A stretch of 19,271 bases of DNA from a virus (IMGVR_UViG_3300037488_002392); one strand, 5' to 3'; positions 1,769-19,271 are shown, numbered from the stretch's first letter. Program-made: numbers and translations. The notes: a model not told the origin generated them from the sequence alone.

Positions 1769-2259
1769 TAACGAGTCCTACGAACCCGCCTAATGAGTTT
1801 GGGTCGGGAGGGGTAAAGAGGACGCTTGGGTATAGTGCGAACCTTAGTGGCTTCATGTAGGTGCCTAGCGTATAATTTTCCGAATGTACGGGTAAGCCTA
1901 CTTCTATTCCTTTTTTTAATGGACGACATAAAATCTGTGAGAGGCTCTTTTCTTCTATATTCGGCTTTGAGGAAATCCCAAGGATTTCGTTTAGCACCTA
2001 GCCTATAATACTCTGAGATTTTCCCCTTTATTTCCATGTCAGTCCATCCAGCTTTGCGAAGGTCTGCACAATATCGTCTACGACTTCTTCGCATCGCTAA
2101 AAATGGCTTAGAATTGAAATTGACATCTTGTTTAACTATATTCCTGGGGCTTGCAGGGGAACCTACGTTTCCACCCGTAGCACGGGAGAACGCTAAAATT
2201 TCCGAGATAGTGAACCCATCATCTAAAAGAAGGCGTTTTTGGTTCTTATTAAGTGCCAT
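1768..2259 (-). CDS. Highly basic hypothetical protein (163 aa), probable nucleic-acid binder
   Basis: Arg/Lys-rich. Start moved to ATG 2259 (MALNK), which has AAGGAG 8 nt upstream. Coupled to the polymerase gene. Confidence 0.75.
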   Translation of the reverse strand: MALNKNQKRLLLDDGFTISEILAFSRATGGNVGSPASPRNIVKQDVNFNSKPFLAMRRSRRRYCADLRKAGWTDMEIKGKISEYYRLGAKRNPWDFLKAEYRRKEPLTDFMSSIKKRNRSRLTRTFGKLYARHLHEATKVRTIPKRPLYPSRPKLIRRVRRTR

Positions 2260-3871
2260 AGTATAATCTCCTTTCACGTACTTGTATTGCTAATGCTGGT
2301 TGGAAAGGGTGGTCAATTCTGTTTCCTAGAGATATGTTGTCTTTCCCCCAAAGAGGGATTAAGTTGCTTTTATCCCAGCACCTACGGAAATCGTAATCAT
2401 TTGGCGTAGTGTAGTTAAACAAGCTGATAGGTATTTTATGATGAACATGCCAACCATGATTTTTGTTGCCGTAGTTATCCCAAGACATACCTTCAGTGAA
2501 GTTATTTTCTAAATGCTCTTTTAGTTCATCTGTTGTATATCCAACTAAATCTTGCCATCGTTTGCTGTTCTTATATCTACGTAGCGAAAGATATAAGTAG
2601 GTGCTCATATTGCTATTCAATCTAACTATTGGGTCTGTTTGTCTTCGTATTCTACATCTATTATTTCCTTTTATGCGTTGGCATTGTTTGCACGTAGTGC
2701 GTATTCCACTGTAAACACCCTCACCCTTCCTGAAGTAGTCAAGAGTAGCTGGGTATATATTATGACAAGTAGTGCATTCCTCTAACAATTTGTAAGCTTT
2801 TTCGAATTTACCCTTTTTATTATATTTGCTACAATCGTAGCACTGGTTTGTGCGTGGTATACCCTTCACTAATATTATCCAAAACCCATTATTGCAAGTA
2901 ATACATTCGTTATACAGGAAGCGAGAGTTACCTTTTCTGCCTATTTCTCTAGCATGTAGTATGTCTCCTATATTTGGAGTATATTTTTTGAGTTGGTCTA
3001 ACGTTAAATATGGGGTTTTAGTCATAGACTTACACATATTGCTTGCACGTATTCTATCGCAATCTAAGCAAGTGAGTGTTTCTGGCTTTCCTCGTTTCAA
3101 CCTTGACCATCTTGTTTTACCGCATGTAGCACAAGCATTCCATATGACCTTCCCTTTCTCTCCTAGCCCTAGTGCTTTACGGTGCCTTATGTCCCCAATC
3201 TGCGGTATATATAAAGATAACTCATTATCAGATAGGGGCTTGATAGCTCGTGATAGCTTGAAGCATTCTAAACATATGTAGCTTTTTTGATGCACTCCTT
3301 TTTTAGTTCTAATCCAATCTTGTTTTTTGCAACCATCACAAGCATACCATTCCCAATAACCACCACTTTCTAAGCCAATATATTTGCTATAACGGATATC
3401 TCCTAATTGCGGGGAATATTTAGCTATTTCTTCAGGAGTGGGAAACTTTTTATTATGTTCAGCTACCCTATGCTCATATCCACATTTAAGACAGCGTTGA
3501 GATACTGGTTTACCTTTCACACAATGAGACCATCTGCCGTTTTTGCAATCATGGCATACATTCCATATCCAGTTACCTTCCCAGCTAACAACCGCACCAA
3601 TTTCCTCAGATGTTCTTATTTCTCCCTCAACTGGGATATGGTCATTAGGAAGCTTAGGTTTTAGTGGAATAAAATTGTTTTCTCCCATAATAATATAGGC
3701 ACATTTGCGGCAATGTGGACTTTGTGGCTTACCTTTTTCATATTGTACCCATCTGCATTCACCACATTTCTCACATGGATACCAAATAAATCTATTTTTG
3801 AAAGAAGTATTGGTTTTGCCAATCTCATATCCCCGCCGTATCTCTCCCAGTTCTGGTTGTTCGATGCTCAT
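2249..3871 (-). CDS. HNH endonuclease with five tandem N-terminal Zn-ribbon repeats and a sixth, different Zn finger (540 aa)
   Basis: Five G[ED]I[RL]-x4-[IL]G...CxxC...W...G...CxxC units (aa ~6-347), then CTTC...CKQC, then a C-terminal GMSWDNYG...WHVHHKIP...NLIPLWGKDNISLGN HNH domain. Confidence 0.8.
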   Translation of the reverse strand: MSIEQPELGEIRRGYEIGKTNTSFKNRFIWYPCEKCGECRWVQYEKGKPQSPHCRKCAYIIMGENNFIPLKPKLPNDHIPVEGEIRTSEEIGAVVSWEGNWIWNVCHDCKNGRWSHCVKGKPVSQRCLKCGYEHRVAEHNKKFPTPEEIAKYSPQLGDIRYSKYIGLESGGYWEWYACDGCKKQDWIRTKKGVHQKSYICLECFKLSRAIKPLSDNELSLYIPQIGDIRHRKALGLGEKGKVIWNACATCGKTRWSRLKRGKPETLTCLDCDRIRASNMCKSMTKTPYLTLDQLKKYTPNIGDILHAREIGRKGNSRFLYNECITCNNGFWIILVKGIPRTNQCYDCSKYNKKGKFEKAYKLLEECTTCHNIYPATLDYFRKGEGVYSGIRTTCKQCQRIKGNNRCRIRRQTDPIVRLNSNMSTYLYLSLRRYKNSKRWQDLVGYTTDELKEHLENNFTEGMSWDNYGNKNHGWHVHHKIPISLFNYTTPNDYDFRRCWDKSNLIPLWGKDNISLGNRIDHPFQPALAIQVRERRLYYGT

Positions 3872-5310: not shown

Positions 5311-5712
5311 TTACACTGCCGCCTTGAGGGAATTCCTCATCCACTCAAACGCCATTTCCTTCAAGTCTTCGGGGATTGATACTACACCCGAAACCATTAT
5401 ATCTGTAATACATTTTACTGCTACCTGAGCCTCAATTGAAATGTCCTTAGTGTTCTTGGGCTGCTGTTGAATCATTTTCTTTGCCTCCATTATATCCTGA
5501 CATCGCTCGATATCCTTTACATAATCTCTTCCAGTGGCAGCAGTTGCCATAATTAATTTTACGGCAGTTCCTGATTGGAGTATGCTCCACTTCTTTTCTA
5601 GCCATGAGCCAATACCATAGGTGTTCCCATCCTTATCGGTGAGCTTGATGTATTTTTTGCCATCCTTTTCGGCATCTTCTACGTGGTCTACGACAGTAAT
5701 CACATCGGTCAT
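5311..5712 (-). CDS. Hypothetical protein, possible OB-fold ssDNA binder (133 aa)
   Basis: Start moved to MTDVI (ATGA overlap at 5709-5712). Beta-rich N-terminus; C-terminal DISIEAQVAVKC motif shared with 12274-12603. Confidence 0.65.
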   Translation of the reverse strand: MTDVITVVDHVEDAEKDGKKYIKLTDKDGNTYGIGSWLEKKWSILQSGTAVKLIMATAATGRDYVKDIERCQDIMEAKKMIQQQPKNTKDISIEAQVAVKCITDIMVSGVVSIPEDLKEMAFEWMRNSLKAAV

Positions 5713-5882
5713 TTTATCTCTGGTTCCTTGCCACATTTGGGACAAAACTTGAAATGGTTAAGCAGTCTATCTCCGCACTGTGTACATTCCTTTAGGTCTT
5801 CCATCGCTGCACCGTCTTGGTGGCAAAATTTATGGGAATCGTTGATGGTTACGTTCTTGCATATTGGGCATTGTTTAGTCAT
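5709..5882 (-). CDS. Double zinc-ribbon protein (57 aa)
   Basis: Start moved to MTKQC (5882, AGGAAGGA upstream); CPIC...FCHQDG...CTQCG...FCPKCG. Confidence 0.7.
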   Translation of the reverse strand: MTKQCPICKNVTINDSHKFCHQDGAAMEDLKECTQCGDRLLNHFKFCPKCGKEPEIK

Positions 5883-8298: not shown

Positions 8299-9580
8299 AT
8301 ATCCTCCTATCATTATCCCATGCTAGGGGTATCGATATATCACTATCACCCTGCCTGTTTTTGGCAAGGATTAATTCGGCTGTTCCCCGTAATTCGGGGT
8401 TCTCCATCAAAAGTTCAGGATATTTATCGGGACGGAACATGAGCAGTGCTACGTCAGCGTCCTCCTCCAAGCGACCAGTTTCACGAAAACTAGTGAGAGT
8501 GGGTCTTTTGCTCTTATTGTGCTGGTCTTCTACACCCCTAGATAGTTGTGATAATATAAGTCCAGGCACTTCAAGGGCTTCTAACACTTGTTTTGTTCTT
8601 GTAGAGATTAAGGATACCCTTTCATATGGAGACTTCCCCCCGTCTGCAAATAGTTGAAGGTAATCCACTATGATAGCTGACAACCCATGCGTAAGTTTCA
8701 TAGTTTCTGCTATCCTAAACAGCATATCAGTGGTAACCCCTGCTCCAGTATTAAGTCCTCTTCCCAAAAAGTATATGTTTTTCTCTGCCATCTTAGGCAA
8801 AGTGTTGACTATTTGCTTATAAAACTCATCGTAGTAGTTTCCTATTCTGACAGAGCGAGGATGGACAGCTAACTCAGAGGATATCATTCTATCTAAGAGT
8901 CCTCTCCAATTCATCTCCAACGAAGCGAATAATATATTACCTTGTGTTTGCATATTGTCAGCAATTTGCATTGCAAGGCTGGTCTTTCCGTGGCTCGCAC
9001 GTCCTCCCAGTAGCCACATTTCTCCTTGGAACATTCCCCCCGTTTCATAATCCAATTGTTCGAAACCTGTTTTAATAGAAGTCTTTAATCCGTGAGAGAG
9101 GGTAGCGTATCTGTCTGCTCCCATCAGTGCAAGTTTGTTAGGGGTTATCAGGCTGTCAGTAAGCACTGATTTGCCTATTGTTGATAGCATCTGGTTAGCC
9201 TTTAATAGGTTGTCCTTGGGGTCAACGTTGAGGGATGCCATTGCGCTGATTTGTTCAGAAGCAGAAATAATCTTTCGGTTTACGGAACAGTCCTTAACTA
9301 CTCTGGCATATGATTCTACCCCAACAGATGTCACTGCCCTGGCTACTAAACCAACAATATAGCTAACTCCGCCAGCTTCTTCTAATTTCCCCATCCTATT
9401 TAATTCATGTGGTACAGTAATCTCGTTGGGGGTTTCGCATTTAAGCATGGCAGTATAGATAAGTTGGTGCTCAGAAAGGAAAAAGTCAGATGGCTCTAAA
9501 CTTAAGATTCTTATACAATCGGGGTCAATCAGGATGGCTCCCAGTACCGCCATTTCCCCGTCATCGTTGCGGGGTATCAT
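8291..9580 (-). CDS. dnaB: Replicative DNA helicase DnaB (429 aa)
   Basis: N-terminal EMAVLGAILID, Walker A GGRASHGKTS, IVDYLQL, LSQLSR, RETGRLEEDADV, ILAKNRQG. Start moved to the ATGA overlap at 9580. Confidence 0.93.
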   Translation of the reverse strand: MIPRNDDGEMAVLGAILIDPDCIRILSLEPSDFFLSEHQLIYTAMLKCETPNEITVPHELNRMGKLEEAGGVSYIVGLVARAVTSVGVESYARVVKDCSVNRKIISASEQISAMASLNVDPKDNLLKANQMLSTIGKSVLTDSLITPNKLALMGADRYATLSHGLKTSIKTGFEQLDYETGGMFQGEMWLLGGRASHGKTSLAMQIADNMQTQGNILFASLEMNWRGLLDRMISSELAVHPRSVRIGNYYDEFYKQIVNTLPKMAEKNIYFLGRGLNTGAGVTTDMLFRIAETMKLTHGLSAIIVDYLQLFADGGKSPYERVSLISTRTKQVLEALEVPGLILSQLSRGVEDQHNKSKRPTLTSFRETGRLEEDADVALLMFRPDKYPELLMENPELRGTAELILAKNRQGDSDISIPLAWDNDRRIYV

Positions 9581-9849: not shown

Positions 9850-10225
9850 CTTCTATCTCTCCCCATTTATCAGGCAAGTCGGGGAATTTCCCCTCATGTC
9901 CTAAGGGTAGCTCAGGGAACTTACCCATCAGGTCAGTTAAGGCTGCGGATGATTTCATACTGAGTTTGAGTTGTTGCCACAGCTCATACAAAACTACTTC
10001 AGAGATGCTACCAAGTACCCGTTCCTGCGATTTATCGAACCTCAGCATCTGCTCTATCTGTTCCATCCACCACTTATCACGGGCAGCCGCTGTCTTGGAG
10101 TCCTGTGCTTTAATTAGGTCTGTAAAGAATGTACGAGGCAATATATAAGCATCAGTGGTGGGGAAAGATGGTGATATTATAACTTGCAATATCTCATCGT
10201 CAATCAATAACCGTTCATTTTCCAT
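9842..10225 (-). CDS. Modular family protein (RLL / AARDKWW / WQQLK), 127 aa
   Basis: ENERLLIDDEI, AQDSKTAAARDKWW, WQQLK. Confidence 0.75.
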   Translation of the reverse strand: MENERLLIDDEILQVIISPSFPTTDAYILPRTFFTDLIKAQDSKTAAARDKWWMEQIEQMLRFDKSQERVLGSISEVVLYELWQQLKLSMKSSAALTDLMGKFPELPLGHEGKFPDLPDKWGEIEGE

Positions 10226-10490
10226 TCCCTATCTCCTCCCTACGCTCTTGCCAGCATTGATAGCACTCCAGTTTGAGAGTATCTTCATCAAACTCTTTGG
10301 TATCAGGATTGAAGATATGGTTATGTGGGCAAGTGCTTTGTGCCCACCCTACCCATTCCTTATCACGAGCAGCGAGCATGGCAGAAGCACCAGCTTCAAA
10401 GTTCTTGTACATTGAACACTGTTGCTCAGGTGGTAAATCCTTGCAGTCACAAGTTTCTTCCCATCCTTCAGGTCGCCATTCTGTTTTCAT
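10215..10490 (-). CDS. Modular family protein (WRP / EAGASAML / RDKEW / CWQERR), 91 aa
   Basis: Start moved to MKTEW (ATGA overlap, AAGGAG SD). Confidence 0.75.
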   Translation of the reverse strand: MKTEWRPEGWEETCDCKDLPPEQQCSMYKNFEAGASAMLAARDKEWVGWAQSTCPHNHIFNPDTKEFDEDTLKLECYQCWQERREEIGNGK

Positions 10491-10669
10491 ATCCCTATCT
10501 CCTTGCGGCGGGATTGCCAACAGTTAAAACATGCACTCTTGGAAGTCCCATCTCGGCGGTGCATACATGTATCTTCTCCCCACTCTACCCACTCTTTATC
10601 ACGGGCAGCGATGGCTTCGTCCCATGCCTTCTCGCAGTCACCATAGGTTTGAAAGTATGGATTATTCAT
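10487..10669 (-). CDS. Modular family protein (AARDKEWVEW / CWQSRRKEIG), 60 aa
   Basis: Shared modules; ATGA overlaps on both sides. Confidence 0.75.
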   Translation of the reverse strand: MNNPYFQTYGDCEKAWDEAIAARDKEWVEWGEDTCMHRRDGTSKSACFNCWQSRRKEIGI

Positions 10670-10953
10670 AACCCTAACTCCTTCTTGAGTTGTTGCCAGC
10701 TCTCTATATGGCAGACTCCCGCTTTATCACAAATCAAACAATGTTCGGAGTCAACCTCCAGGCTTAGACAGGTGCCGATAAACTTCTCTATCCTCTCTAC
10801 CCACCACTTATCACGGGCAGCGGTAGACTTGACATCTTGGGCTTTGCAGAAGTAAGCAATCGAGATATCTCCCGCATGGTCGTAGGCTTCATCATCATTT
10901 AAGAGGTGACAAATTTCAATATTACTTAATAACCTATCCATTGGCTCATTCAT
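10666..10953 (-). CDS. Modular family protein (RLL / AARDKWW / WQQLK), 95 aa
   Basis: DRLLSNIEI, AQDVKSTAARDKWW, WQQLKKE. Confidence 0.75.
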   Translation of the reverse strand: MNEPMDRLLSNIEICHLLNDDEAYDHAGDISIAYFCKAQDVKSTAARDKWWVERIEKFIGTCLSLEVDSEHCLICDKAGVCHIESWQQLKKELGL

Positions 10954-11171
10954 TTCTCACCTCTTAATTCTGCCATACATTGAGGGCAGAGATAGCGATG
11001 TTTTATGTGTATCACATCTCCGCATCCACAATGCAAGGGGATTTTACACGGCTCATCCAAGTAGACCAGCAGGGCAGAGAGCATGGCAGAGGCACCAGCT
11101 TCACACGCTGACCTCTCAGGTTCATCAAATAAATTTCCCCAATCATCAGGTCGCCCATTTATCCAGTTCAT
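10950..11171 (-). CDS. Modular family protein (GRP / EAGASAML / CPxC-ELRGEK), 73 aa
   Basis: Shared modules; ATGA overlaps. Confidence 0.75.
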   Translation of the reverse strand: MNWINGRPDDWGNLFDEPERSACEAGASAMLSALLVYLDEPCKIPLHCGCGDVIHIKHRYLCPQCMAELRGEK

Positions 11172-11437
11172 AACACTCCCATATTTTTTTTGAGTTGTTC
11201 AAAAGCTTGGCATGAAAAAGAATGAACAGAACAAGTAAGTTTATGCTTACAGTTTCCTGAATAGCAACCATAAATTAACTCTTTGACTCCTGCTACCCAC
11301 CACTTATCACGGGCAGCGATGGATTGGTTGCTATGGGCAGCACAGCAACCCCATTTCGAGCAACTATCGCAATCAGGTACTTTTGCTAATGGGTCACGTT
11401 CTGCGCATGGAATACCACCAAGCATATCTTTACTCAT
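11168..11437 (-). CDS. Modular family protein (Cys-rich / AARDKWW / EQLKK), 89 aa
   Basis: Shared modules; ATGA overlaps. Confidence 0.75.
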   Translation of the reverse strand: MSKDMLGGIPCAERDPLAKVPDCDSCSKWGCCAAHSNQSIAARDKWWVAGVKELIYGCYSGNCKHKLTCSVHSFSCQAFEQLKKNMGVL

Positions 11438-11754
11438 TTCTCACCTCTTAATTCATTCATACAAGTAGGGCAGTCTTTACGATGCAAATAGCTTGCTTTA
11501 TATTTGCCGGTTGGGAGCAGGATTACTTCGACCCTACTCGCATCTACCCTATCTCGGTTATCCACCAGATGGGCAGGATTATCACACGGGGCATCCATAT
11601 ATTTCAGCAGTTTGCGTTGACCTTGACAAAGACTCTTGTAATGATCGTGAATTACGCATTGCCCACTTACTACACATTTATTGTATTTACTTTGGTAATG
11701 CTCTCGTGAACTGCATTTATCACACGGATTAACTGGTTTCCAGTCTGTAGCCAT
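11434..11754 (-). CDS. Modular family protein (WKP / CPxC-ELRGEK), 106 aa
   Basis: LLKYMDAPC...RKDCPTCMNELRGEK. Confidence 0.75.
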   Translation of the reverse strand: MATDWKPVNPCDKCSSREHYQSKYNKCVVSGQCVIHDHYKSLCQGQRKLLKYMDAPCDNPAHLVDNRDRVDASRVEVILLPTGKYKASYLHRKDCPTCMNELRGEK

Positions 11755-11939
11755 TAGATTCCCTCCCCTTTTTGTGGACTCATAACAAGTGCGATTCTTT
11801 CGTATTCAATCCTATCAATGTAGACAGCATATCCAGAGTACAAAATTACTCGGCACAGGTTATCATCACAGTATTCAACTCTGCATATATCAGATACCGT
11901 GAGGGGGCAATTCATATTTCTATTGTCTTGTATTTTCAT
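11754..11939 (-). CDS. Small Cys-containing protein (61 aa)
   Basis: Start moved to MKIQD (ATGA overlap; AAGGAG SD embedded in the upstream RKKEIG codons). Confidence 0.65.
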   Translation of the reverse strand: MKIQDNRNMNCPLTVSDICRVEYCDDNLCRVILYSGYAVYIDRIEYERIALVMSPQKGEGI

Positions 11940-12277
11940 AACCCTATCTCCTTCTTGCGTTCTTGCCAGTCCCCCAGGGCAAATTTGGATAGGCAATTGA
12001 ACTCTAAACCATAGTCAGTTTCATGGAATAGGTTAGATTCAAGCCACTCCACCCACTCTTTGTTGCAGGAATCAATGGCTATAGCGACAGCCTTGTTATA
12101 GGCATCTAACGATCCGCAGTTGTCAGCACATTTAATGTCGTCACGGCTATTAGCATTGTGACAATATTTGCAAACTACAGGTATAGATGCCTCGTATTCC
12201 TTCAATCTGTTGCAAGTGTCTGGATACAAGGGGCAATGCCGTATTTCAATCTCACAATTTAGGCAAGGAGTTTTCAT
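11936..12277 (-). CDS. Modular family protein (Cys-rich / NKEWVEW / WQERKKEIG), 113 aa
   Basis: Start moved to MKTPC (ATGA overlap). Confidence 0.7.
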   Translation of the reverse strand: MKTPCLNCEIEIRHCPLYPDTCNRLKEYEASIPVVCKYCHNANSRDDIKCADNCGSLDAYNKAVAIAIDSCNKEWVEWLESNLFHETDYGLEFNCLSKFALGDWQERKKEIGL

Positions 12278-12603
12278 TTCAGGGCACTCCGTATCCATTC
12301 GATTGCCATTGTCTTAATATCTTCCGGTACTTCTACGTTAGCAGCCATTAAATCCGTGACACATTTTACTGCAACCTGTCTTTCAATGCTTAAATCCCGT
12401 GGGTTTTTGGGTGCTGTCTGGCTCAATTCCGCCATTTTATCCATTGAAAGATCATAGCAAAGGTCGAAGTCCTTAACATAGATTTGCCCTTTGTATTCAT
12501 CCATCTGAAGTCTGACTGCTGCGTCCTGCTTTAAGAGCACCCACTTGGCTTCCATATTTCCTTTCCACATAGGATTTTCGCTTTCTAATAATCTCCTGGT
12601 CAT
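12274..12603 (-). CDS. N-terminally different paralog of the 5311-5712 protein (109 aa)
   Basis: DLSIERQVAVKCVTDLM...EWIRSALK aligns with DISIEAQVAVKCITDIM...EWMRNSLK. Confidence 0.7.
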   Translation of the reverse strand: MTRRLLESENPMWKGNMEAKWVLLKQDAAVRLQMDEYKGQIYVKDFDLCYDLSMDKMAELSQTAPKNPRDLSIERQVAVKCVTDLMAANVEVPEDIKTMAIEWIRSALK

Positions 12604-12890
12604 TTATTGGCCTCCTTTAATTCATTAAGACATTGAGGGCAGTCCTTACGATACTTATAAAACTTTTTTCCATTTATTTCTATCAATGGTGCGGCAGTGA
12701 ACCATCCATGCCTTTCATTACTACATGACCCATACATATATTTAACCACATCATGTAGCATGGCAGAGGCACCAGCTTCGTAGGAGTTGGCACATTCCAT
12801 TTCTACATAAGGATTATCAACATGGTCAGGATTGCGGAAATCATGCGGATTCATCCAATCAGTAGGTCGTCCTTTAATCCAGTCTGTCAT
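12600..12890 (-). CDS. Modular family protein (GRP / EAGASAML / CPQC-ELK), 96 aa
   Basis: Start moved to MTDWI (ATGA overlap). Confidence 0.75.
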   Translation of the reverse strand: MTDWIKGRPTDWMNPHDFRNPDHVDNPYVEMECANSYEAGASAMLHDVVKYMYGSCSNERHGWFTAAPLIEINGKKFYKYRKDCPQCLNELKEANK

Positions 12891-13414
12891 AACCCTACCT
12901 CCTTGCGGCGGGATTGCCACACGTTATAAGCGCAAACTTCCTTCCGCATTTCGGGACAATTTGTACACTGTAGATATTTCCGCTCCAAGCAAATGTACGG
13001 CAATAGGTTATGAAATAGTTTATCAAGCCACTCTACCCACTCTTTATCTGTCTTGGCGAGTTGGGCAGCGGATGCCATCTCAGCAAATTCCATCCCCTCA
13101 CACGGCTCTGCTTTCGCTTCGCACTCAAGCGAGTTGTCACAGTCCATACAAAATAATTCCACTAAGTCCATATCACGCAATAGTCTATTTTCGCTCATAA
13201 TCCTACACTCCTTTAGATAGTCACACGATAATCCTTCTTCGAGCAAACAGGGTTTACCATTTATATCACAAGTTGCAATTGGGTCGGTAGGTTGTTGATG
13301 CCCACATTTACCTAAGAGGCTATCAATATATTCTTCATACTGTTCAGATTCATGCCCACTAATTTGCCTGCTTTCATGTTCACGAATCTCATCATCAGAT
13401 GCTAACCTACTCAT
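12887..13414 (-). CDS. Modular family protein (two RL modules / DKEWVEW / WQSRRKEVG), 175 aa
   Basis: MSRLASDDEI and internal MSENRLLRDMDL, suggesting a fusion of two units. Confidence 0.75.
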   Translation of the reverse strand: MSRLASDDEIREHESRQISGHESEQYEEYIDSLLGKCGHQQPTDPIATCDINGKPCLLEEGLSCDYLKECRIMSENRLLRDMDLVELFCMDCDNSLECEAKAEPCEGMEFAEMASAAQLAKTDKEWVEWLDKLFHNLLPYICLERKYLQCTNCPEMRKEVCAYNVWQSRRKEVGL

Positions 13415-13776
13415 AATCCTATCTCCCTCCAGCAAATATCACAAGAATGTTTCTGCTTTATAGGCATATTCCCCGATGTGAAATGCGGGCAAGGTTCGTT
13501 CATATACTCCACCACATCTTTCAATATAGTAGATGCCCCTGCCTCGTAGGCTGCTACACAGATATGGCAAGCATCTGGGTGTTCTTCACAGCGTCCGCAG
13601 TAGTCAGGTTGGCCTACCCATTCTTGTGGTCTCCATTTTTCGAACCTCTGCGTGTTTCTCATTTCCTTTTCTCTTCGAGCTTTTCGTTTAAGTCTCCTAT
13701 CTAGTTCACGAGATAATTTACCACTCTTCCTAATTATTGTTACCTCACTATGCATTACTTCTACTTCTTTGTTCAT
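13411..13776 (-). CDS. Modular family protein (WRP / EAGASTIL / CDICWREIG), 121 aa
   Basis: Basic N-terminal extension plus shared modules; ATGA overlap at 13773-13776. Confidence 0.7.
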   Translation of the reverse strand: MNKEVEVMHSEVTIIRKSGKLSRELDRRLKRKARREKEMRNTQRFEKWRPQEWVGQPDYCGRCEEHPDACHICVAAYEAGASTILKDVVEYMNEPCPHFTSGNMPIKQKHSCDICWREIGL

Positions 13777-14405
13777 ATCCAACTCCTACTTACTGGCGTA
13801 TATTTTATTTCGATGGTCGCTCCTTCAATCATAGGCATTGGGTTGCCTTGAGCAAAAGCCATCTCCCCTGCTTTCCTCATTAAAGTCTCTGAAGGGATGC
13901 AGTATTCACGTGGCACAAGGTTAGGCTTTACTACTGTTACCTTTACATAAGTACGATAGTTAGTTGTTCCCATATTATGGTGGGAGGTTTTGGATAGAGC
14001 CGTGACACCAAGGTCGGGAAGGGGGATAATCTCACCAGTTTCCTTTGCATCCTCAGTTTTTTGCCAGAATTCTGTTGCCCGTGCCATCATCTCTTCATCG
14101 GTGGTTTCAATGAGTTTCTTGCGGTAGACTGACAGCGACCCATCTACTTTACTTATTAACCCATCAACGTTCATAATATAAGGTTTAAAGAGTGCCCTGA
14201 CACGCTTCTCTGACTCAAGGATAGGTTGGAGAAGGTTATCCAATTGCTCTTTAGCCTGTTTGCGTGCATATTTAAGTTCAGCACTGAGTTCCTCAACTCT
14301 TTTCTGCTCAACAATGTTGGTGATTTGGATGTTTTCTGCCCATTTCAATAGGTCAGCGTTTTTTTCTACTACCTTTGACAGGGCTTGCTGTGCGTTATCA
14401 ATCAT
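13773..14405 (-). CDS. Gp157/Mu-Gam-like coiled-coil phage protein (210 aa)
   Basis: Long amphipathic helical N-terminal half, then VVKPNLVPREYCIP...IEGATI, typical of this phage family. Confidence 0.55.
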   Translation of the reverse strand: MIDNAQQALSKVVEKNADLLKWAENIQITNIVEQKRVEELSAELKYARKQAKEQLDNLLQPILESEKRVRALFKPYIMNVDGLISKVDGSLSVYRKKLIETTDEEMMARATEFWQKTEDAKETGEIIPLPDLGVTALSKTSHHNMGTTNYRTYVKVTVVKPNLVPREYCIPSETLMRKAGEMAFAQGNPMPMIEGATIEIKYTPVSRSWI

Positions 14406-15243: not shown

Positions 15244-15272
15244 TTGACATATATTGTGGTTAGGTATATAAT
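15244..15272 (+). promoter_or_regulatory. Rightward consensus sigma70 promoter
   Basis: TTGACA (15244-15249), 17 bp, TATAAT (15267-15272); ATG follows after 6 nt. Confidence 0.88.
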
Positions 15273-15278
15273 GGGGAT

Positions 15279-15416
15279 ATGATTAAATTAAATCATTACT
15301 TAACAGACAAGCAAATGGAGTACCTAAAATCACTTTCTAAGGAAACTGGTCTATCGGTAGCAGAAATATTAAGGAGGCTAATTGATAAACAAATTGCAGA
15401 GGGTAAAAATGTATAA
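15279..15416 (+). CDS. Ribbon-helix-helix (CopG/Arc-like) regulator 1 (45 aa, not in ORF track)
   Basis: MIKLNHYLTDKQMEYLKSLSKETGLSVAEILRRLIDKQIAEGKNV: beta-strand plus two helices with G-x-S-x-A-E-x-x-R. Confidence 0.85.
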   Translation: MIKLNHYLTDKQMEYLKSLSKETGLSVAEILRRLIDKQIAEGKNV

Positions 15417-15435
15417 TAAAGGATATGGAGGGAAA

Positions 15436-16278
15436 ATGAGGTCTCTACTAATTCTAATGGCTATCTTATCGATAGCAATCACATCAATAAGTTGTTTGCC
15501 TACTAAAACTACCCCCACTGTTTCTACCAAAGATGTTGAGCAAGACGCTGCTATAGCTGAAGTCAGGCGTTCTGTACAGAGCGTAGACTCTTCAAAAGCT
15601 AACACTGGAGATTTCAATTTACTGAAGGGCAGGGTAGATACAATGGATGTGAAAGTTACCGCTGGAGGAGGCGGCTCAACAAATGTTTACGATAAAACCC
15701 AAACTTATACCAAGGTAGAAGTAGATGCCGCAATTGCCACCGCAATCTCTAATTTAAAAGCAGCCACTGACCAGACATGGATAAAAACAAGCGGAGGGAC
15801 TGGTGGTGGGACAACGGGGGGGACAAGCGCAACTGGTTCAGTAGTATTTGCTATAAATCCAGTATCAATCCCCCAGATATTCAGTTCATCAACGGGGGGC
15901 AACTCTAATCCGTGGATTATGACCATTAACAATCAGAGCACTACTTGGCAGTATGTCAAACCGATGATTTCTCTCAATGTAGCCTCTGGTCAACCCTCAA
16001 GCTTAGTAAGTGATGTATCCTTAATGGCAAGCGGGGGCAACTGTAGTTTAACGGGAACCCTCTTAATGCCAGGCAACTACACCTTCTCGCCCTCCAATAT
16101 GGCAACAGTAGCAACCCCCAGTGTTATAGTTTTCCCAATCTCAGGTTGCAACGGTTCGGGTGAATGGTATATCGGGCCTGGGCAACAGCAAGCTTACAAC
16201 ATCCAAATACAGGGTCTCAAAACCCCCAACCCTATCCTATGGAACGTGACCTGCTCTATCTCAGCAAGGTCTATGTAA
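15436..16278 (+). CDS. Lipoprotein with coiled coil, Gly/Thr linker and beta-rich C-terminal domain (280 aa)
   Basis: Start moved to MRSLLILMAILSIAITSISC (GGAGG SD; lipobox-like Cys); YTKVEVD motif; GGTGGGTTGG linker. Confidence 0.75.
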   Translation: MRSLLILMAILSIAITSISCLPTKTTPTVSTKDVEQDAAIAEVRRSVQSVDSSKANTGDFNLLKGRVDTMDVKVTAGGGGSTNVYDKTQTYTKVEVDAAIATAISNLKAATDQTWIKTSGGTGGGTTGGTSATGSVVFAINPVSIPQIFSSSTGGNSNPWIMTINNQSTTWQYVKPMISLNVASGQPSSLVSDVSLMASGGNCSLTGTLLMPGNYTFSPSNMATVATPSVIVFPISGCNGSGEWYIGPGQQQAYNIQIQGLKTPNPILWNVTCSISARSM

Positions 16279-16373: not shown

Positions 16374-16402
16374 TTGACTTTATGTGCAATAGTATGTATA
16401 AT
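16374..16402 (+). promoter_or_regulatory. sigma70-type promoter
   Basis: TTGACT (16374-16379), 17 bp, TATAAT (16397-16402); ATG follows after 6 nt. Confidence 0.8.
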
Positions 16403-16408
16403 GTCATT

Positions 16409-16555
16409 ATGAAAAGAATTAATTATCACTTAACAGACAAGCAAATCGAGCAATTGAAGGCTATTTCAAAGGAAACGGGTGCCCCCGTGGCGGAACTAAT
16501 ACGGCGGGCGGTGGATGCGTGGTTGCATGAACGGGGGAGGGGTGAAGTAAGATGA
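16409..16555 (+). CDS. Ribbon-helix-helix regulator 2 (48 aa, not in ORF track)
   Basis: MKRINYHLTDKQIEQLKAISKETGAPVAELIRRAVDAWL...; 21 of the first 36 residues identical to regulator 1. Confidence 0.85.
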   Translation: MKRINYHLTDKQIEQLKAISKETGAPVAELIRRAVDAWLHERGRGEVR

Positions 16556-16845
16556 GGGAAGGTTATAATAACTCATTTTATGGTAAGCACCATACTGAAG
16601 AAGCAAAACAGAAGAATAGGGAAGCGCACCTTGGCACCAAATTGAGTGAAGAGACTAAGATGAAGATGAGTGAATCCCATCGCCAAAATGATGTTTGGAC
16701 AGGACGTAAGCATAGTGAAGCATCTATCTTGAAGATGAAGATTGCTAAGTTGGGCAAAAAGGATAGCGAAGAGATGATTTGGGAGAAGTATTGGATACTT
16801 GATGGAGAGCTTTTAATAGGACAAATGTCATTTTTGTATCAATAG
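16552..16845 (+). CDS. NUMOD3-repeat protein without a nuclease domain (97 aa), possible homing-endonuclease remnant
   Basis: FYGKHHTEEAKQK, KLSEETKMKMS, GRKHSEASILKM, GKKDSEE; no GIY-YIG or HNH motif; ATGA overlap with regulator 2. Confidence 0.7.
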   Translation: MREGYNNSFYGKHHTEEAKQKNREAHLGTKLSEETKMKMSESHRQNDVWTGRKHSEASILKMKIAKLGKKDSEEMIWEKYWILDGELLIGQMSFLYQ

Positions 16846-16859
16846 TTCGCCTTCCCCCC

Positions 16860-16888
16860 TTGACAACCACTCTACATAATGTTAATCT
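16860..16888 (+). promoter_or_regulatory. sigma70-type promoter upstream of the intron-containing gene
   Basis: TTGACA (16860-16865), 17 bp, extended TGn-TAATCT (16883-16888). Confidence 0.65.
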
Positions 16889-17078
16889 AAAAACACAATG
16901 ATATGCATTATGCGTGTCGCCATATTCGGCAGTTCGCCGTCAGGTAGTTACGTTCTGTAACTATCGGACGAGCGATGTCTTTTAATTCAAATTGCGTCCC
17001 CATGAGTTCTCACTCTTCAAATGAGATTAAGCTGTCTGCTTGTGTATACGGTGGTTTGCCGAAAGGAAAACTAAGAAC

Positions 17079-17529
17079 ATGATTGGACAGGTCGTAATGC
17101 TCATGATGGTGGGCGTAATCGGCATGATAAGCTTCCAGGTCAATTGGCCCATTTATCTAGTGATAGATAAAATGAACCCAGCTAACTCGGTGAACCCTAA
17201 ACTCTTTGAGCATGGGAATACCGAACTAAATTCAACGAAAGTTGATAAATGCGTAGAGAGCAGAAACTGGGCTTCTCAACGAGAAGATGGTGTGCTCCGA
17301 ACTGCAAGGAAACTTGTAGAATGCTACAGAAATGATAGCGTCACATATCTAAAGATGTGTGGTAACAGATTGCGTGCGTGGCATCGCCACTTCTCTTTGC
17401 TCCAACACCACAGGTTGGTCAACGACAGAGAACGTGCTTATCTGCCAGATAGTAGGTATCGTAGTCGCTTTGGCGATTATAATCCTGCTGTTCATCCTCA
17501 TCGCCAAGTCTGCACAGGGTCTTACTTAA
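17079..17529 (+). CDS. Spliced CDS join(17079..17140,17373..17529): 72-aa two-helix hydrophobic protein, candidate major coat protein
   Basis: 62+157 nt = 73 codons: MIGQVVMLMMVGVIGMISFQVVRGIATSLCSNTTGWSTTENVLICQIVGIVVALAIIILLFILIAKSAQGLT; AAAGGA upstream; many C-ending codons in exon 2. Confidence 0.75.
17141..17372 (+). ncRNA. Group I self-splicing intron (232 nt, no internal homing endonuclease)
   Basis: P1 GGUC-AAUU-GGCC with U-G at the 5' splice site. P2 TTTATCTA-GTGA-TAGATAAA. P3 CCCAG/CTGGG. P4 TCGGT/ACCGA. P6a TCAAC-GAAA-GTTGA. P7 G(A)GAGCA/TGCTCC with bulged A and G-site pair. P8 CTTCTC/GAGAAG. P9 CTGCAAG-GAAA-CTTGTAG. P9.1 and P9.2 hairpins. Terminal G at 17372. Splicing restores a coherent reading frame. 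Confidence 0.9.
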
Positions 17530-17544
17530 ACTAAGTAGTGTCCC

Positions 17545-17575
17545 GTGGGTGGGGTCAATAAAAGGCTCCACCCAC
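17545..17575 (+). terminator. Stable 12-bp hairpin after the spliced gene (terminator-like or 3' stabilizer)
   Basis: GTGGGTGGGGTC pairs with GGCTCCACCCAC; no U-tract follows, so not a canonical intrinsic terminator. Confidence 0.45.
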
Positions 17576-17664
17576 AAAACTATCCATAAAATCTATGGAA
17601 CAAGGGATACAGGACGAAAGCAATAGAACAAAGAACATAAATAAAGGAATAAGGAGAAAAGGAA

Positions 17665-17754
17665 ATGGCGACAAAGAGATATTGCAACAAATGCAAAAAG
17701 TATCATATCAGTGCCAAGATGAAGGCAAAGCACCGCAAAAGCTTAAGGAAGTAA
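17665..17754 (+). CDS. Tiny basic CxxC peptide (29 aa, not in ORF track)
   Basis: MATKRYCNKCKKYHISAKMKAKHRKSLRK; AAGGAG/AAGGA SD. Confidence 0.55.
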   Translation: MATKRYCNKCKKYHISAKMKAKHRKSLRK

Positions 17755-17782
17755 CAAGAAGTAACGCTAAGGTAATCAAGTA

Positions 17783-17878
17783 GTGAGCAAAAACAACCTT
17801 AAGTGGCACATAGCAAAGATGCGGAAGCACAAACATCGCAAGGCATTGAAGAAGGACAGGAAGAAAAATAAAAAATAG
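17783..17878 (+). CDS. Tiny basic peptide resembling the bS22/COX24(mS38) motif (31 aa, not in ORF track)
   Basis: GTG start; MSKNNLKWHIAKMRKHKHRKALKKDRKKNKK; AAGGT upstream. Confidence 0.45.
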   Translation: MSKNNLKWHIAKMRKHKHRKALKKDRKKNKK

Positions 17879-17885
17879 GAGAACG

Positions 17886-18056
17886 ATGATGGCAAAGAAA
17901 GTAAAGAGAGCAAAGAGAAGCACAGGTAAGAAAGATGCGTATGGTTTTCCCAAGATAGCTACTAGGGATACCAAGGAAGTAGTTAAAGATTGGAAGAAAA
18001 CCTTCAAGACAGGCAAGGGCGGTTTCGGTTCTACGTATGCTGCTAGTGGGAAATAG
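17886..18056 (+). CDS. Small basic protein (56 aa, not in ORF track)
   Basis: MMAKKVKRAKRSTGKKDAYGFPKIATRDTKEVVKDWKKTFKTGKGGFGSTYAASGK; AGGAG SD. Confidence 0.65.
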   Translation: MMAKKVKRAKRSTGKKDAYGFPKIATRDTKEVVKDWKKTFKTGKGGFGSTYAASGK

Positions 18057-18121
18057 AGTGTAGCGTGTGTTTACCTGCACTCCATATAAGATGCAGGGTA
18101 ACTGTGAGGGAGGTGTAGGGA

Positions 18122-18337
18122 TTGAAAAAAATAATATGTAATAATGCTAGGTGGAAAGTGACAGACAGCCAATCTTGCAGAAGAAGGGCTGTTTTGTCTT
18201 ATGAAAAGGGTAATTTAACTAAGGCTGCTAACTATTGTAAGCATTTAGCCTATGTCTCAAATGATTTAGAGATAAAGAGGAAGGCTAAGTTGGATGGGTT
18301 ATATTTTAGGGAGAGGGCAAAGAGGAAGAATAAATAG
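18122..18337 (+). CDS. Small basic protein (71 aa)
   Basis: TTG start with GGAGGT SD; Lys/Arg-rich; TAGTG overlap with the next gene. Confidence 0.65.
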   Translation: MKKIICNNARWKVTDSQSCRRRAVLSYEKGNLTKAANYCKHLAYVSNDLEIKRKAKLDGLYFRERAKRKNK

Positions 18338-19271
18338 TGAAAATACTGAATACTTTTCTCTCTATCCTTATTATATGTCTGTGGTTGATGCCTGCTCCTG
18401 TGCAGGCAGACCCAATAGCAGACTTCTTGTTTCCGTGGATGAAACCTCCTGTTCCTGATTATGTAAGGATAGGGGACAAAGTAATCTACGAGGATGAGGA
18501 TGTTTATTTAGAAGCATCTCCAGCGATACTGACATCTTCGGGGTGGGTGATCTTTAAGTATAAGACAAAGACATTTACAGATGAGATGGATGTAGTGTAT
18601 GGGTTTAATGATAATCTTCAAATATCTAAACCACAGTTCTTAAATCCTTATGCAGTAAGGACAAAATATAATGAAGTAACATCAATAAAGACTGCTACCT
18701 TTGAGCCAAAATCAATAATATCAAGCGTTGAGCCTAAATATTATGTAAAGGCAGATGTGGGGGATAATGCATTAAACTCAAAAGTAGCAGTAGTAGACTG
18801 TGAGGTGGAGTCATCAATGATAGCGGGAATAGTAGGCAAAACTACAACCACTCGCCAAACACGGACGATAGCCTATGATACATTTGATGGGGTTAAATAC
18901 ACATATAAATATATAGCGACAGACCAAATTCCTTATACAGTAATAGAAGAAGGGATAGATGATATAAAGTCACCAATTACTACAAGTTCATTTAATTCTC
19001 AAGGGATGAATAAATGGCAGTCGGTTTATTCAGGGAAAACGGCTTACGCTAATCAGTTGAATGAAACAAAAGTATATATTGATATTCCTTTTGCAGGGAC
19101 AGAGAGGATAGAGGGGAAGTATTTAGTAGGGTTGAAACCCTCGTATTTAACAGTAGACCAAGCGAAAAGTGATGGGCAACTATGGTTGATTGACCCTTGG
19201 TATAATTCGTCATGGGGATATAAGAAGTCTATTGGCATAAATTGTGATACCAACCAGACCAATTACCAAAT
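18337..19271 (+). CDS. Large secreted/surface protein with a probable DUF2341-type domain (partial, >311 aa, not in ORF track)
   Basis: GTG start, signal peptide MKILNTFLSILIICLWLMPAPVQA, frame open to the window end; ends LIDPWYNSSWGYKKSIGINCDTNQTNYQ, the typical start of DUF2341 domains. Confidence 0.75.
   Translation, partial: MKILNTFLSILIICLWLMPAPVQADPIADFLFPWMKPPVPDYVRIGDKVIYEDEDVYLEASPAILTSSGWVIFKYKTKTFTDEMDVVYGFNDNLQISKPQFLNPYAVRTKYNEVTSIKTATFEPKSIISSVEPKYYVKADVGDNALNSKVAVVDCEVESSMIAGIVGKTTTTRQTRTIAYDTFDGVKYTYKYIATDQIPYTVIEEGIDDIKSPITTSSFNSQGMNKWQSVYSGKTAYANQLNETKVYIDIPFAGTERIEGKYLVGLKPSYLTVDQAKSDGQLWLIDPWYNSSWGYKKSIGINCDTNQTNYQ

What the first reader, a model, noticed from the sequence alone, without database searches (positions are those of the whole stretch)
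17079..19271. Spindle-shaped-virus-like coat module in a virus with bacterial expression signals
Seen: the spliced protein is 72 aa with two long hydrophobic helices (IGQVVMLMMVGVIGMISFQVV; VLICQIVGIVVALAIIILLFILIA). Its short loop has a Cys pair and an N-T-T sequon, its codon usage differs from the AT-rich background, and it has its own promoter and a strong 3' hairpin. It is followed by four small basic proteins and a large secreted protein. No tailed-phage structural genes are in the window. Known: fusellovirus/halspivirus major capsid proteins (e.g. SSV1 VP1) are ~70-80-aa glycosylated hydrophobic hairpins accompanied by a basic nucleoprotein and a large adhesin; His1-type viruses encode pPolB; such viruses are described from archaea. 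Inference: this may be a lemon-shaped, filamentous or enveloped virus of a bacterium, possibly one with a reduced wall. The resemblance is pattern-level, from memory.
Basis: partly seen in the sequence, partly recalled or inferred. Interest (0 to 1): 0.9.

Follow-up and report, generated by a model that had tools for sequence, protein, structure and literature searches.

The report
Intron-split membrane coat gene, bacterial virus
A tiny, very greasy two-helix protein gene, interrupted by a self-splicing intron, opens a block of membrane-anchored and DNA-coating protein genes in an undescribed large bacterial virus that shows none of the usual head-and-tail genes, so the virus may wrap its DNA the way many archaeal viruses do, although this is inferred and not yet shown.

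Summary
Window 17141-17372 is a group I intron, supported by Rfam, by covariation over five copies and by intronless homologues. It has a conserved Cys pair and an N-T-T sequon at the hairpin tip, GC3 of 0.63 against 0.32-0.48 elsewhere, and a strong 3' hairpin. Four proteins of pI 10.2-11.8 follow, then a 1518-aa secreted, sequon-rich protein that ends in about three membrane helices.

The protein has no detectable homology to SSV1 VP1/VP3 or to any Pfam, PHROG or PDB family, and its fold matches are generic hairpins. The context does fit a membrane-containing, non-tailed virion. In a relative, nine of about 22 module genes are membrane- or lipid-anchored and six are strongly basic. 68 kb of that relative's 76-kb contig holds no recognisable terminase, portal, HK97 capsid or tail gene, but does hold an AglB-type oligosaccharyltransferase and a large glycan cluster.

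Expression signals, DnaB, group I introns and a class II tRNA-Tyr point to a bacterial host. A weak lead points to Dehalococcoidales. Virion shape is unknown.

Best reading (about 0.5): the major glycosylated membrane or coat protein of a new non-tailed bacterial virus lineage.

The parts
15244..15272 (+). Sigma-70-type promoter, TTGACA-17-TATAAT (12/12), at the head of the rightward module
15409..16278 (+). Lipoprotein (lipobox Cys). It has N-terminal helices and a C-terminal beta-sandwich. It is the most conserved and most widespread protein of the module, with 66 clusters.
16382..16845 (+). Ribbon-helix-helix ORF (16382-16555) and a NUMOD3-only ORF (16552-16845). They occupy the place where relatives carry a free-standing HNH homing-type endonuclease.
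16860..16888 (+). Possible promoter of the two-helix gene: TTGACA, a 17-nt spacer ending in TGT, and a weak -10 TAATCT. Inferred only.
   Evidence: sequence; not called by the scan
17079..17140 (+). Exon 1 of the two-helix protein gene (start codon, helix 1). The last base, U17140, pairs with G17147 in P1 (GGU / GCC).
17141..17372 (+). Group I intron of 232 nt with P1-P9b, no ORF of its own, and omega-G at G17372
17373..17529 (+). Exon 2: loop with the Cys pair and N-T-T sequon, helix 2, and the stop codon at 17527-17529
17545..17576 (+). Strong GC-rich hairpin 3' of the gene. Its loop (CAAUAAAAGG) is conserved in relatives, where a U tract follows.
17665..17754 (+). Basic protein 1: 29 aa, pI 10.6, 12 K+R, with a GGAG ribosome-binding site
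17783..17878 (+). Basic protein 2: 31 aa, pI 11.8, GTG start
17886..18056 (+). Basic protein 3: 56 aa, pI 10.5
18122..18337 (+). Basic protein 4: 71 aa, pI 10.2. By eye it resembles the 74-79-aa protein that precedes the large gene in L001 and L003.
18337..19271 (+). 5' part of the large secreted protein. The full protein (P0003) is 1518 aa, with a signal-peptide-like N terminus, DUF2341, 37 N-x-S/T sequons and about three C-terminal membrane helices.

Best explanation
The gene at 17079-17529 is split by a self-splicing group I intron. It encodes a 72-aa helical-hairpin membrane protein. I read this protein as the abundant membrane or coat subunit of the virion of an undescribed, probably non-tailed, membrane-containing dsDNA virus of a bacterium.

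Proposed mechanism (the steps below are inferred unless marked shown):
1. The transcript is made from its own promoter and ends at the hairpin. The intron removes itself (structure shown, catalysis inferred).
2. The hairpin inserts into the cytoplasmic membrane with both ends inside. Its short Cys / N-T-T loop faces outside, where a virus- or host-encoded AglB-type oligosaccharyltransferase could glycosylate it.
3. The four small basic proteins condense the roughly 90-kb genome.
4. The lipoprotein and the large sequon-rich proteins, anchored by C-terminal helices, decorate the same membrane as spikes or fibres.
5. The particle forms by wrapping the nucleoprotein in this protein-loaded membrane or lattice.

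The resemblance to fusellovirus VP1 + VP2 + VP4 is an analogy of design, not demonstrated homology.
For: Shown:
- The intron and the exact splice product.
- The two-helix hairpin.
- The conserved LCxNTTxW loop and second Cys.
- GC3 of 0.63, shared only with basic proteins 1 and 2, at 0.60 and 0.66.
- A conserved terminator-like hairpin.
- A tandem duplicate of the gene in L002.
- Conserved order across the window, L001, L003 and L014: two-helix gene, then basic proteins; the large anchored protein follows in the window, L001 and L003.
- In L001, 9 of about 22 module proteins carry membrane helices or a lipobox, and 6 have a net charge of +9 to +16.
- Every large DUF2341 protein, including the window's own, ends in about three membrane helices. 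The window's has 37 sequons.
- The relative encodes an STT3/AglB-type enzyme with WWDYG: Pfam 25.9 bits against a cut-off of 24.5, and TIGR04154 at E 8.5e-58. It also has GT1, GT2 and GT4 enzymes and sugar-modifying enzymes.
- No terminase, portal, HK97 capsid, sheath or tube family was found in the window or in record positions 4,641-72,226 of the 75,858-base relative.

Precedent: IME1 elements of Dehalococcoides are proposed budding or filamentous dsDNA viruses with VP1-like small membrane proteins (bioRxiv 10.64898/2026.09.15.751708).
Against: - No virion data exist.
- The protein is not detectably related to any known capsid protein. Its fold is a generic hairpin shared with ATP-synthase c subunits and many uncharacterised viral membrane proteins.
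- The sequon sits at the very tip of a 6-residue loop in the AF2 model, which may be too close to the membrane for an oligosaccharyltransferase.
- The L001 type lacks the Cys pair.
- About 8 kb of the relative, and 73 kb of the window's own contig, were not seen.
- Pfam and PHROG profiles can miss very divergent head genes.
- A 34-tRNA array, a 76-93 kb genome, DnaB and a giant 1400-5257-aa helical protein are features better known from large tailed phages.
- No packaging or extrusion ATPase of any kind was recognised.
Confidence: 0.5

Rival explanations
1. The virus is a large tailed phage whose head and tail genes are too divergent to recognise, or lie in the unseen part of the genome. In this case the two-helix protein is an accessory membrane protein: a class II holin or pinholin-like lysis protein, or a superinfection-exclusion or membrane-remodelling factor.
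For: - Size and topology fit class II holins.
- Genome size, the tRNA array, DnaB, homing endonucleases and group I introns are typical of virulent tailed phages.
- The giant helical 1403-5257-aa protein could be a tape measure.
- A 411-aa fibre- or tailspike-like protein is present: PHROG E 1.7e-25, and an Atlas YadA-like lead.
- There is a weak Dit_C hit, E 0.044.
Against: - There is no significant holin family hit; the best is phrog_4237 at E 1.8.
- No endolysin was found next to the gene.
- There is no charged C-terminal tail.
- Strong codon bias, a monocistronic layout and tandem duplication suggest very high expression, which is unlike holins.
- The two small proteins before the giant protein each have two membrane helices, unlike tape-measure chaperones.
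- No terminase, portal or capsid family was found in 68 kb of the relative.
Confidence: 0.2
2. The virus is a tail-less icosahedral virus with an internal membrane, like PRD1, PM2 or STIV. The two-helix protein would be one of its many small internal-membrane proteins, and the true capsid protein would be an unrecognised jelly-roll protein.
For: - There are many small membrane proteins in the module.
- The lipoprotein ends in a well-predicted beta-sandwich, pLDDT above 90.
- Fibre-like proteins are present.
Against: - No double-jelly-roll capsid family and no FtsK/HerA-type packaging ATPase was found by Pfam or PHROG in the stretches seen.
- The beta-sandwich gives only unspecific matches, Z up to 6.9, and it is lipid-anchored behind a coiled coil, which is unlike a capsid protein.
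- From general knowledge, genomes of known members are 10-20 kb.
- An abundant set of basic proteins argues for a nucleoprotein core.
Confidence: 0.12
3. The protein is a true, very distant homologue of the fusellovirus/halspivirus major capsid protein, and the virion is lemon-shaped. This would make it the first spindle-shaped virus of a bacterium.
For: - It has the same size and design as mature SSV1 VP1: two hydrophobic helices with a Ser/Thr-rich loop carrying N-x-T sequons.
- An adjacent basic protein or proteins, and a large protein, parallel VP2 and C-792/VP4.
Against: - hhalign probability is 0.4 % against VP1 and 0.3 % against VP3.
- No PHROG hit was found, and phrog_11172 holds VP1 according to the IME1 preprint.
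- BFVD shows no VP1 among its best 50 matches.
- Gene order differs from SSV1.
- The genome is five to six times larger than SSV1's, and nothing constrains particle shape.
Confidence: 0.08

Closest known systems
Fuselloviridae structural set (SSV1 VP1/VP3 major capsid proteins, VP2 basic DNA-binding protein, C-792/VP4)
   Same: - A hairpin of two hydrophobic helices, about 70-80 aa.
- A Ser/Thr-rich loop with N-glycosylation sequons.
- Neighbouring small basic protein or proteins.
- A large exposed protein encoded in the same region.
   Different: - No sequence or profile similarity.
- The loop is much shorter.
- There are four basic proteins instead of one.
- The large proteins are 1200-1800 aa with three C-terminal helices.
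- The genome is 76-93 kb and carries DnaB, a tRNA array and an oligosaccharyltransferase of its own.
- Promoters are bacterial, and the gene is split by group I introns.
IME1 elements of Dehalococcoides, proposed budding/filamentous dsDNA viruses (bioRxiv 10.64898/2026.09.15.751708)
   Same: - A bacterial (Chloroflexota) context.
- No tailed-phage hallmark genes.
- Several small membrane proteins, some resembling VP1 in structure.
- Adhesin-like proteins with membrane anchors.
   Different: - IME1 elements are 21-28 kb, integrative, and carry a pI-like ATPase and a tyrosine recombinase.
- None of these was seen here.
- The lineage here is three to four times larger and looks virulent (tRNA array, DnaB).
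- Direct sequence comparison was not possible because the IME1 proteins were not at hand.
Pleolipoviridae (internal membrane protein VP3 and spike VP4) and Plasmaviridae
   Same: A small multi-helix membrane protein together with a secreted spike anchored by C-terminal helices. This is a membrane-vesicle-like design without a capsid shell. The comparison is from general knowledge and is a resemblance only.
   Different: - The hosts are archaea (Pleolipoviridae) or Acholeplasma, and genomes are 7-17 kb.
- They have no set of basic proteins.
- No homology was tested here.
Group I introns of bacteria and phages (Rfam RF00028), with free-standing homing endonucleases nearby
   Same: - The full P1-P9 core with the P3/P7 pseudoknot.
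- A U.G pair at the 5' splice site and a terminal G.
- GNRA loops.
- An HNH endonuclease gene directly upstream in relatives.
   Different: - The intron is compact (226-245 nt) and has no ORF.
- The family occupies four different sites, all after GGU, in a gene of only about 70 codons. Up to two introns are seen per gene.
- The likeness to Azoarcus-type IC3 introns is from memory only.
Class II holins / pinholins
   Same: A small protein with two membrane helices, encoded by a bacterial virus.
   Different: - No family match, no neighbouring endolysin and no charged C-terminal tail.
- A conserved extracytoplasmic sequon and Cys pair.
- Signs of very high expression.

Membership tests
Fusellovirus/halspivirus major capsid protein (SSV1 VP1/VP3; phrog_11172) | Detectable sequence or profile similarity to VP1/VP3 | tested here: not met
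   No PHROG hit at E <= 10 for six family members or exons. hhalign of alignment A3 against SSV1 VP1 gives probability 0.4 %, and against VP3 0.3 %. The profile is shallow (Neff 1.4), so very distant kinship is not excluded.
Fusellovirus/halspivirus major capsid protein (SSV1 VP1/VP3; phrog_11172) | About 70-90 aa with two hydrophobic helices joined by a Ser/Thr-rich loop bearing N-glycosylation sequons | tested here: met
   The product is 72 aa with GRAVY 1.54. Helices span 3-30 and 37-65. The N-T-T sequon is conserved. Compare VP1.
Fusellovirus/halspivirus major capsid protein (SSV1 VP1/VP3; phrog_11172) | Specific structural match to VP1 models | tested here: inconclusive
   The best BFVD match has E 1.1 and no VP1 appears in the top 50. 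PDB gives only c-subunit-like hairpins. A two-helix hairpin carries too little information to decide.
Fusellovirus/halspivirus major capsid protein (SSV1 VP1/VP3; phrog_11172) | Major component of purified virions | not testable with these tools
   This needs particles and mass spectrometry.
Group I intron (RF00028) | Covariance-model match | tested here: met
   The window intron scores 29.1 bits, E 8.4e-6, over the full model but below the gathering score of 50. L001 intron 2 scores 31.3 bits. L003 intron 1, at the same site as the window's, scores 58.6 bits, above gathering.
Group I intron (RF00028) | Conserved core helices P3-P8 with the P3/P7 pseudoknot, supported by covariation | tested here: met
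   95.7 % of cells are paired and 39 of 67 pairs are compensatory. P3 has 5 of 5 and P7 has 3 of 5 pairs with double changes. Slid controls give 25-37 %.
Group I intron (RF00028) | Exon U paired with G at the 5' splice site, a terminal G, and splicing that restores a conserved reading frame | tested here: met
   GGU|..GCC forms P1 in all five copies, and ...UUG| is the 3' end in all five. Spliced L003 equals uninterrupted L001. The window junction matches intronless P0017. Catalysis itself was not tested.
Class II holin / pinholin | Membership of a holin family, an adjacent endolysin, and a charged C-terminal tail | tested here: not met
   The best holin hit is phrog_4237 at E 1.8. No lysin family was found in the window. 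The C terminus has a single Lys.
Inovirus major coat protein / VirB2-TraA pilins | Family match; a signal peptide plus one helix and a basic C terminus (coat), or T4SS context (pilin) | tested here: not met
   No Pfam hit at E <= 10 apart from noise. The protein has two helices and no basic tail. No pI-like ATPase or T4SS gene was seen.
Caudoviricetes (tailed phages) | HK97-fold capsid protein, portal and large terminase | tested here: inconclusive
   None was found by Pfam or PHROG in the window, nor in positions 4,641-72,226 of a 75,858-base relative. The rest of the window's 92.8-kb contig was not retrievable, and no fold-level screen of all ORFs was possible.

The most novel reading that the evidence does not exclude
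A lineage of large (76-93 kb) dsDNA viruses of bacteria, possibly of wall-less, S-layer-bearing Dehalococcoidia, has no HK97 capsid or terminase. Instead it packages a nucleoprotein in a glycosylated membrane or lattice built from a 70-aa helical hairpin. This is an archaeal-virus-like architecture. It comes with the virus's own AglB-type N-glycosylation machinery, a near-complete tRNA set, and a coat gene colonised by group I introns at four sites.
Probability: 0.35. Interest if true: 0.9.

Novelty: new variant of a known kind. Interest (0 to 1): 0.72.

Why it matters
Almost all known dsDNA viruses of bacteria with genomes above 20 kb are tailed. Capsid-less, membrane- or hydrophobic-lattice-coated particles with basic nucleoproteins are regarded as a speciality of archaeal viruses, and this is often linked to the archaeal cell envelope.

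A bacterial lineage with that design would test whether virion architecture follows the host envelope rather than host ancestry. This holds especially if its hosts are the peptidoglycan-free Dehalococcoidia, for which one smaller candidate (IME1) has just been proposed.

Such a lineage would also add a virus-encoded N-oligosaccharyltransferase and the densest known colonisation of a tiny gene by group I introns.

There is a practical point too. Gene callers miss or mis-call this gene, because the intron leaves a spurious 151-aa open frame. Standard virus-detection resources also do not contain the lineage: there is nothing in IMG/VR or in GenBank phages.

Tried and rejected
- **Alternative readings of the gene.** I first considered a frameshift, an assembly error, translational bypass, or two separate ORFs (the 151-aa frame-1 ORF P0001, and GTG 17359). 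I rejected all of these once the intervening sequence proved to be a conserved group I intron and intronless homologues matched the spliced product.
- **Alternative 3' splice sites.** G17378 and G17381 are also in frame. I rejected them because all five introns end in ..GUAACA(N2-3)UUG, and because VVR is conserved in P0017. They are not formally excluded without RNA data.
- **Rfam on larger stretches.** The whole window, and a 900-base stretch, gave nothing. Only short stretches passed the filters.
- **Retrieving the source contig.** Exact look-ups failed.
- **IMG/VR.** Scans with the large protein, a 30-mer and the lipoprotein alignment found nothing.
- **GenBank phages.** No hit by DNA or tblastn.
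- **Chloroflexota genomes.** 401 genomes have no lipoprotein homologue. The Dehalococcoidales MAG itself has none either.
- **ESM Atlas.** For the hairpin it gave scores of 0.80 or below, at chance level.
- **PDB.** The sequence search was empty.
- **Homo-oligomer prediction.** Four copies of the hairpin returned no verdict.
- **Polymerase.** It has no Pfam, NCBIfam or PDB match, so the pPolB question stays open.
Full report
**What is at the coordinates**

From ATG 17079 one frame stays open for 151 codons (P0001). Only its first 21 codons are hydrophobic. Both hydrophobic parts therefore cannot be read without a change of frame.

The same roughly 180-nt sequence that separates them occurs twice around the homologous gene of a related metagenome contig (L001). 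That showed it to be a conserved nucleotide element, not coding sequence.

**The element is a group I intron**

- On short stretches, Rfam RF00028 matches over its full length. The window gives 29.1 bits at 17124-17319, E 8.4e-6. L001 gives 31.3 bits at 8403-8602. Both are below the gathering score of 50.
- The intron of L003 that sits at the same site as the window's scores 58.6 bits, above gathering.
- I aligned five copies (A4). The structure covers P2, P3, P4, P5, P6, P7, P8, P9, P9a and P9b, with P3/P7 as a pseudoknot. In it, 95.7 % of cells are paired and 39 of 67 pairs carry compensatory changes. None of 500 shuffles reaches this, and slid controls give 25-37 %.
- In every copy the exon ends in GGU, which pairs with a downstream GCC to form P1 with a U.G pair. 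Every intron ends in GUAACA-N2-3-UUG.
- Splicing L003 at these points recreates exactly the uninterrupted ALMV|GFIAS of L001.
- For the window, the 5' splice site follows U17140 and the terminal G is G17372. The product is 72 aa. It aligns without a gap across the junction with the intronless homologue P0017 at 37.7 % identity, and VVR is conserved at the junction. The profile of intronless homologues also finds exon 2 (E 1.9e-5).
- Two other in-frame 3' sites, G17378 and G17381, are less likely but need RNA data to exclude.
- My impression that the core resembles Azoarcus-type IC3 introns is from memory only.

**The protein**

- It is 72 aa with GRAVY 1.54.
- AF2 on an alignment of intronless relatives gives helices 3-30 and 37-65 with a 6-residue tip, at pLDDT 81.
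- The tip motif LC-x-N-T-T-x-W and a second Cys 15 residues later are conserved in most members. The L001/L003 type keeps N-T-S but has no Cys.
- The family is tiny and unnamed. It has six clusters among 5.8 billion proteins, and four representatives among 1.84 billion in an exhaustive profile search. This is an underestimate, because intron-bearing copies are mis-called.
- It has no Pfam, PHROG or PDB relative.
- hhalign against SSV1 VP1 and VP3, taken from GenBank X07234, gives probabilities below 1 %.
- Foldseek finds only generic hairpins: BFVD best E 1.1, and PDB best hits are ATP-synthase c subunits.
- Homology to fusellovirus coat proteins is therefore not supported. The likeness is one of design.

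**Signs of high expression**

- GC3 is 0.63 against 0.32-0.48 in other genes. Only basic proteins 1 and 2 share this, at 0.60 and 0.66.
- A conserved strong hairpin follows the gene, dG -29.7 and z -5.9. L001, L003 and L014 have a U tract after it; the window does not.
- L002 carries two tandem copies.
A 12/12 and an 11/12 sigma-70 consensus lie at 15244 and 16374.

**Surroundings**

Downstream come four proteins of 29, 31, 56 and 71 aa with pI 10.2-11.8. After them comes the start of a 1518-aa protein (P0003) with a signal-peptide-like N terminus, DUF2341, 37 N-x-S/T sequons and about three C-terminal membrane helices.

Upstream lies a lipobox lipoprotein (15409-16278). Its family has 66 clusters. 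Its model shows N-terminal helices and a confident beta-sandwich, and resembles fibre proteins only in outline: BFVD TM-scores of 0.27 or less, and PDB Z of 6.9 or less.

The order is conserved. The two-helix gene is followed by the basic proteins in the window, L001, L003 and L014, and the large anchored protein comes next in the window, L001 and L003. A roughly 600-aa fn3 protein that also ends in membrane helices, two small two-helix proteins and a giant 1400-5257-aa helical protein follow in L001, L003 and L004. L002 shows the same order in part.

In L001, nine of about 22 module proteins are membrane- or lipid-anchored, and six have a net charge of +9 to +16.

**The rest of a related genome**

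Walking the 75,858-base contig of L001 covered positions 4,641-72,226. No terminase, portal, HK97 capsid, sheath, tube or baseplate family appears, either in the precomputed Pfam hits or in my Pfam and PHROG scans of the larger unnamed proteins.

What does appear:
- A 523-aa STT3/AglB-type oligosaccharyltransferase with many membrane helices and WWDYG at residue 420. Pfam STT3 scores 25.9 bits against a cut-off of 24.5. AglB_core scores E 2e-4. NCBIfam archaeo_STT3 scores E 8.5e-58, below its subfamily cut-off.
- GT1, GT2 and GT4 glycosyltransferases, sugar epimerases, an aminotransferase, WbqC, methyl- and acetyltransferases, and two radical-SAM/SPASM proteins.
- An FtsH-like AAA protease.
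- An array of 34 tRNA genes.

A virus-borne N-glycosylation system fits the conserved sequon in the hairpin and the sequon-rich large proteins. These genes are in a relative whose large protein is about 38 % identical to the window's. They were not seen in the window itself.

**Host**

Bacterial features are:
- consensus sigma-70 promoters;
- Shine-Dalgarno sites and intrinsic terminators in relatives;
- DnaB;
- lipobox lipoproteins;
- group I introns;
- in the relative, a tRNA-Tyr with a long variable arm and an encoded CCA. From general knowledge, class II tRNA-Tyr is a bacterial trait.

The only hit among 185,579 species genomes is a 2.4-kb contig binned in an uncultured Dehalococcoidales MAG, at 44 % identity. 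That is weak evidence. The MAG lacks the lipoprotein, and so do 401 Chloroflexota genomes. STT3 homologues that are 30-38 % identical to the viral enzyme occur in 43 of 301 sampled genomes of that class, including the MAG. This is compatible with such a host but does not prove it.

A 2026 preprint proposes that the 21-28-kb IME1 elements of Dehalococcoides are budding or filamentous dsDNA viruses with VP1-like small membrane proteins. That is a precedent, though with different genes and size.

**Verdict**

Best reading (about 0.5): the hairpin is the abundant, probably glycosylated, membrane or coat subunit of a non-tailed, membrane-containing bacterial virus of an undescribed lineage, analogous to fusellovirus VP1 and not demonstrably homologous to it.

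Rivals are:
- a divergent tailed phage with an accessory membrane or lysis protein (0.2);
- an internal-membrane icosahedral virus (0.12);
- true VP1 homology with a spindle shape (0.08).

Shape cannot be inferred. The missing 73 kb of the source contig, and the lack of fold-level annotation, are the main gaps.

Noticed in passing
L001 8038-8266 and 8413-8652; L003 2659-2884 and 2987-3231; L013 2348-2583 and 2676-2832; L014 6210-6450 and 6610-6833; L022 2198-2428 and 2547-2797: The same compact, ORF-less group I intron family occupies four different sites, all after GGU: after codons 5, 12, about 20 and about 55. The host gene has only about 70 codons, and five relatives carry two introns each. 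L002 has two intronless tandem copies. This is an unusually high intron load for so small a gene.
   Followed up: partly
window 16382-16845; L001 7039-7950; L003 1827-2522; L014 up to 6125: Relatives carry a free-standing HNH endonuclease gene directly upstream of the intron-bearing gene. That layout is known from collaborative homing. In the same place the window has only a ribbon-helix-helix ORF and an ORF made of NUMOD3 repeats without a nuclease domain, which may be a decayed homing endonuclease.
   Followed up: partly
L006 14823-16394 (= L007 4836-6407) and L007/L009/L010 neighbours: The related virus encodes an AglB/STT3-type N-oligosaccharyltransferase (WWDYG at 420; TIGR04154 E 8.5e-58). 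It also has a glycan-biosynthesis cluster of about 25 kb: GT1/GT2/GT4, epimerases, DegT, WbqC, radical SAM/SPASM, methyl- and acetyltransferases, and Asn synthase. I could not find a precedent for a phage-encoded enzyme of this type in the paper library.
   Followed up: partly
L009 16304-19209: This is an array of 34 tRNA genes covering almost all amino acids. tRNA-Tyr is class II with an encoded CCA. The four tRNA-Leu are only 76-79 nt, which is short for a class II tRNA. One tRNA-like gene (16944-17018) has an odd anticodon loop that ARAGORN reads as a 4-base anticodon.
   Followed up: no
window 599-1768 (-) and 321-602 (-): The polymerase-like ORF (phrog_11768) aligns only with residues 1-393 of the relative's 535-aa protein. 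It stops right after a VDG motif. The next ORF is unrelated, so the window's gene is truncated, split or has a displaced C-terminal part. No Pfam, NCBIfam or PDB match exists, so its polymerase family is undetermined.
   Followed up: partly
window 10215-13782 (-): This is a run of paralogous small Cys-rich ORFs: 10215-10520, 11434-11754, 11936-12298, 12600-12920, 12887-13435 and 13411-13782. They share motifs such as MAIPPQG, EAGASAML and a C-terminal WQ.R.KE(I/V)GL. A second paralogous pair lies at 5311-5745 and 12274-12603. None has a family match in the scans made.
   Followed up: no
window 2249-3871 (-): A 540-aa protein with about five repeats of a CxxC...CxxC zinc-ribbon module. By eye, its C-terminal HNH-like end resembles the endonucleases upstream of the coat gene in L001 and L003. 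Pfam does not name it.
   Followed up: no
window 15409-16278 (+): The lipoprotein family is far larger (66 clusters at 90 % identity, on contigs up to 81.6 kb) than the two-helix family appears to be. It is a convenient marker gene for this virus lineage. JGI annotates some members as 'Lpp', which is probably wrong.
   Followed up: partly
P0004 contig (Logan SRR23086397), gene at 7978->; L003 12548->: The giant protein of the module reaches 5257 aa in one relative and more than 3300 aa in another. In L001 (1403 aa) it is helical, with a central hydrophobic stretch and a long Pro-Ala repeat. Its function is unknown.
   Followed up: no
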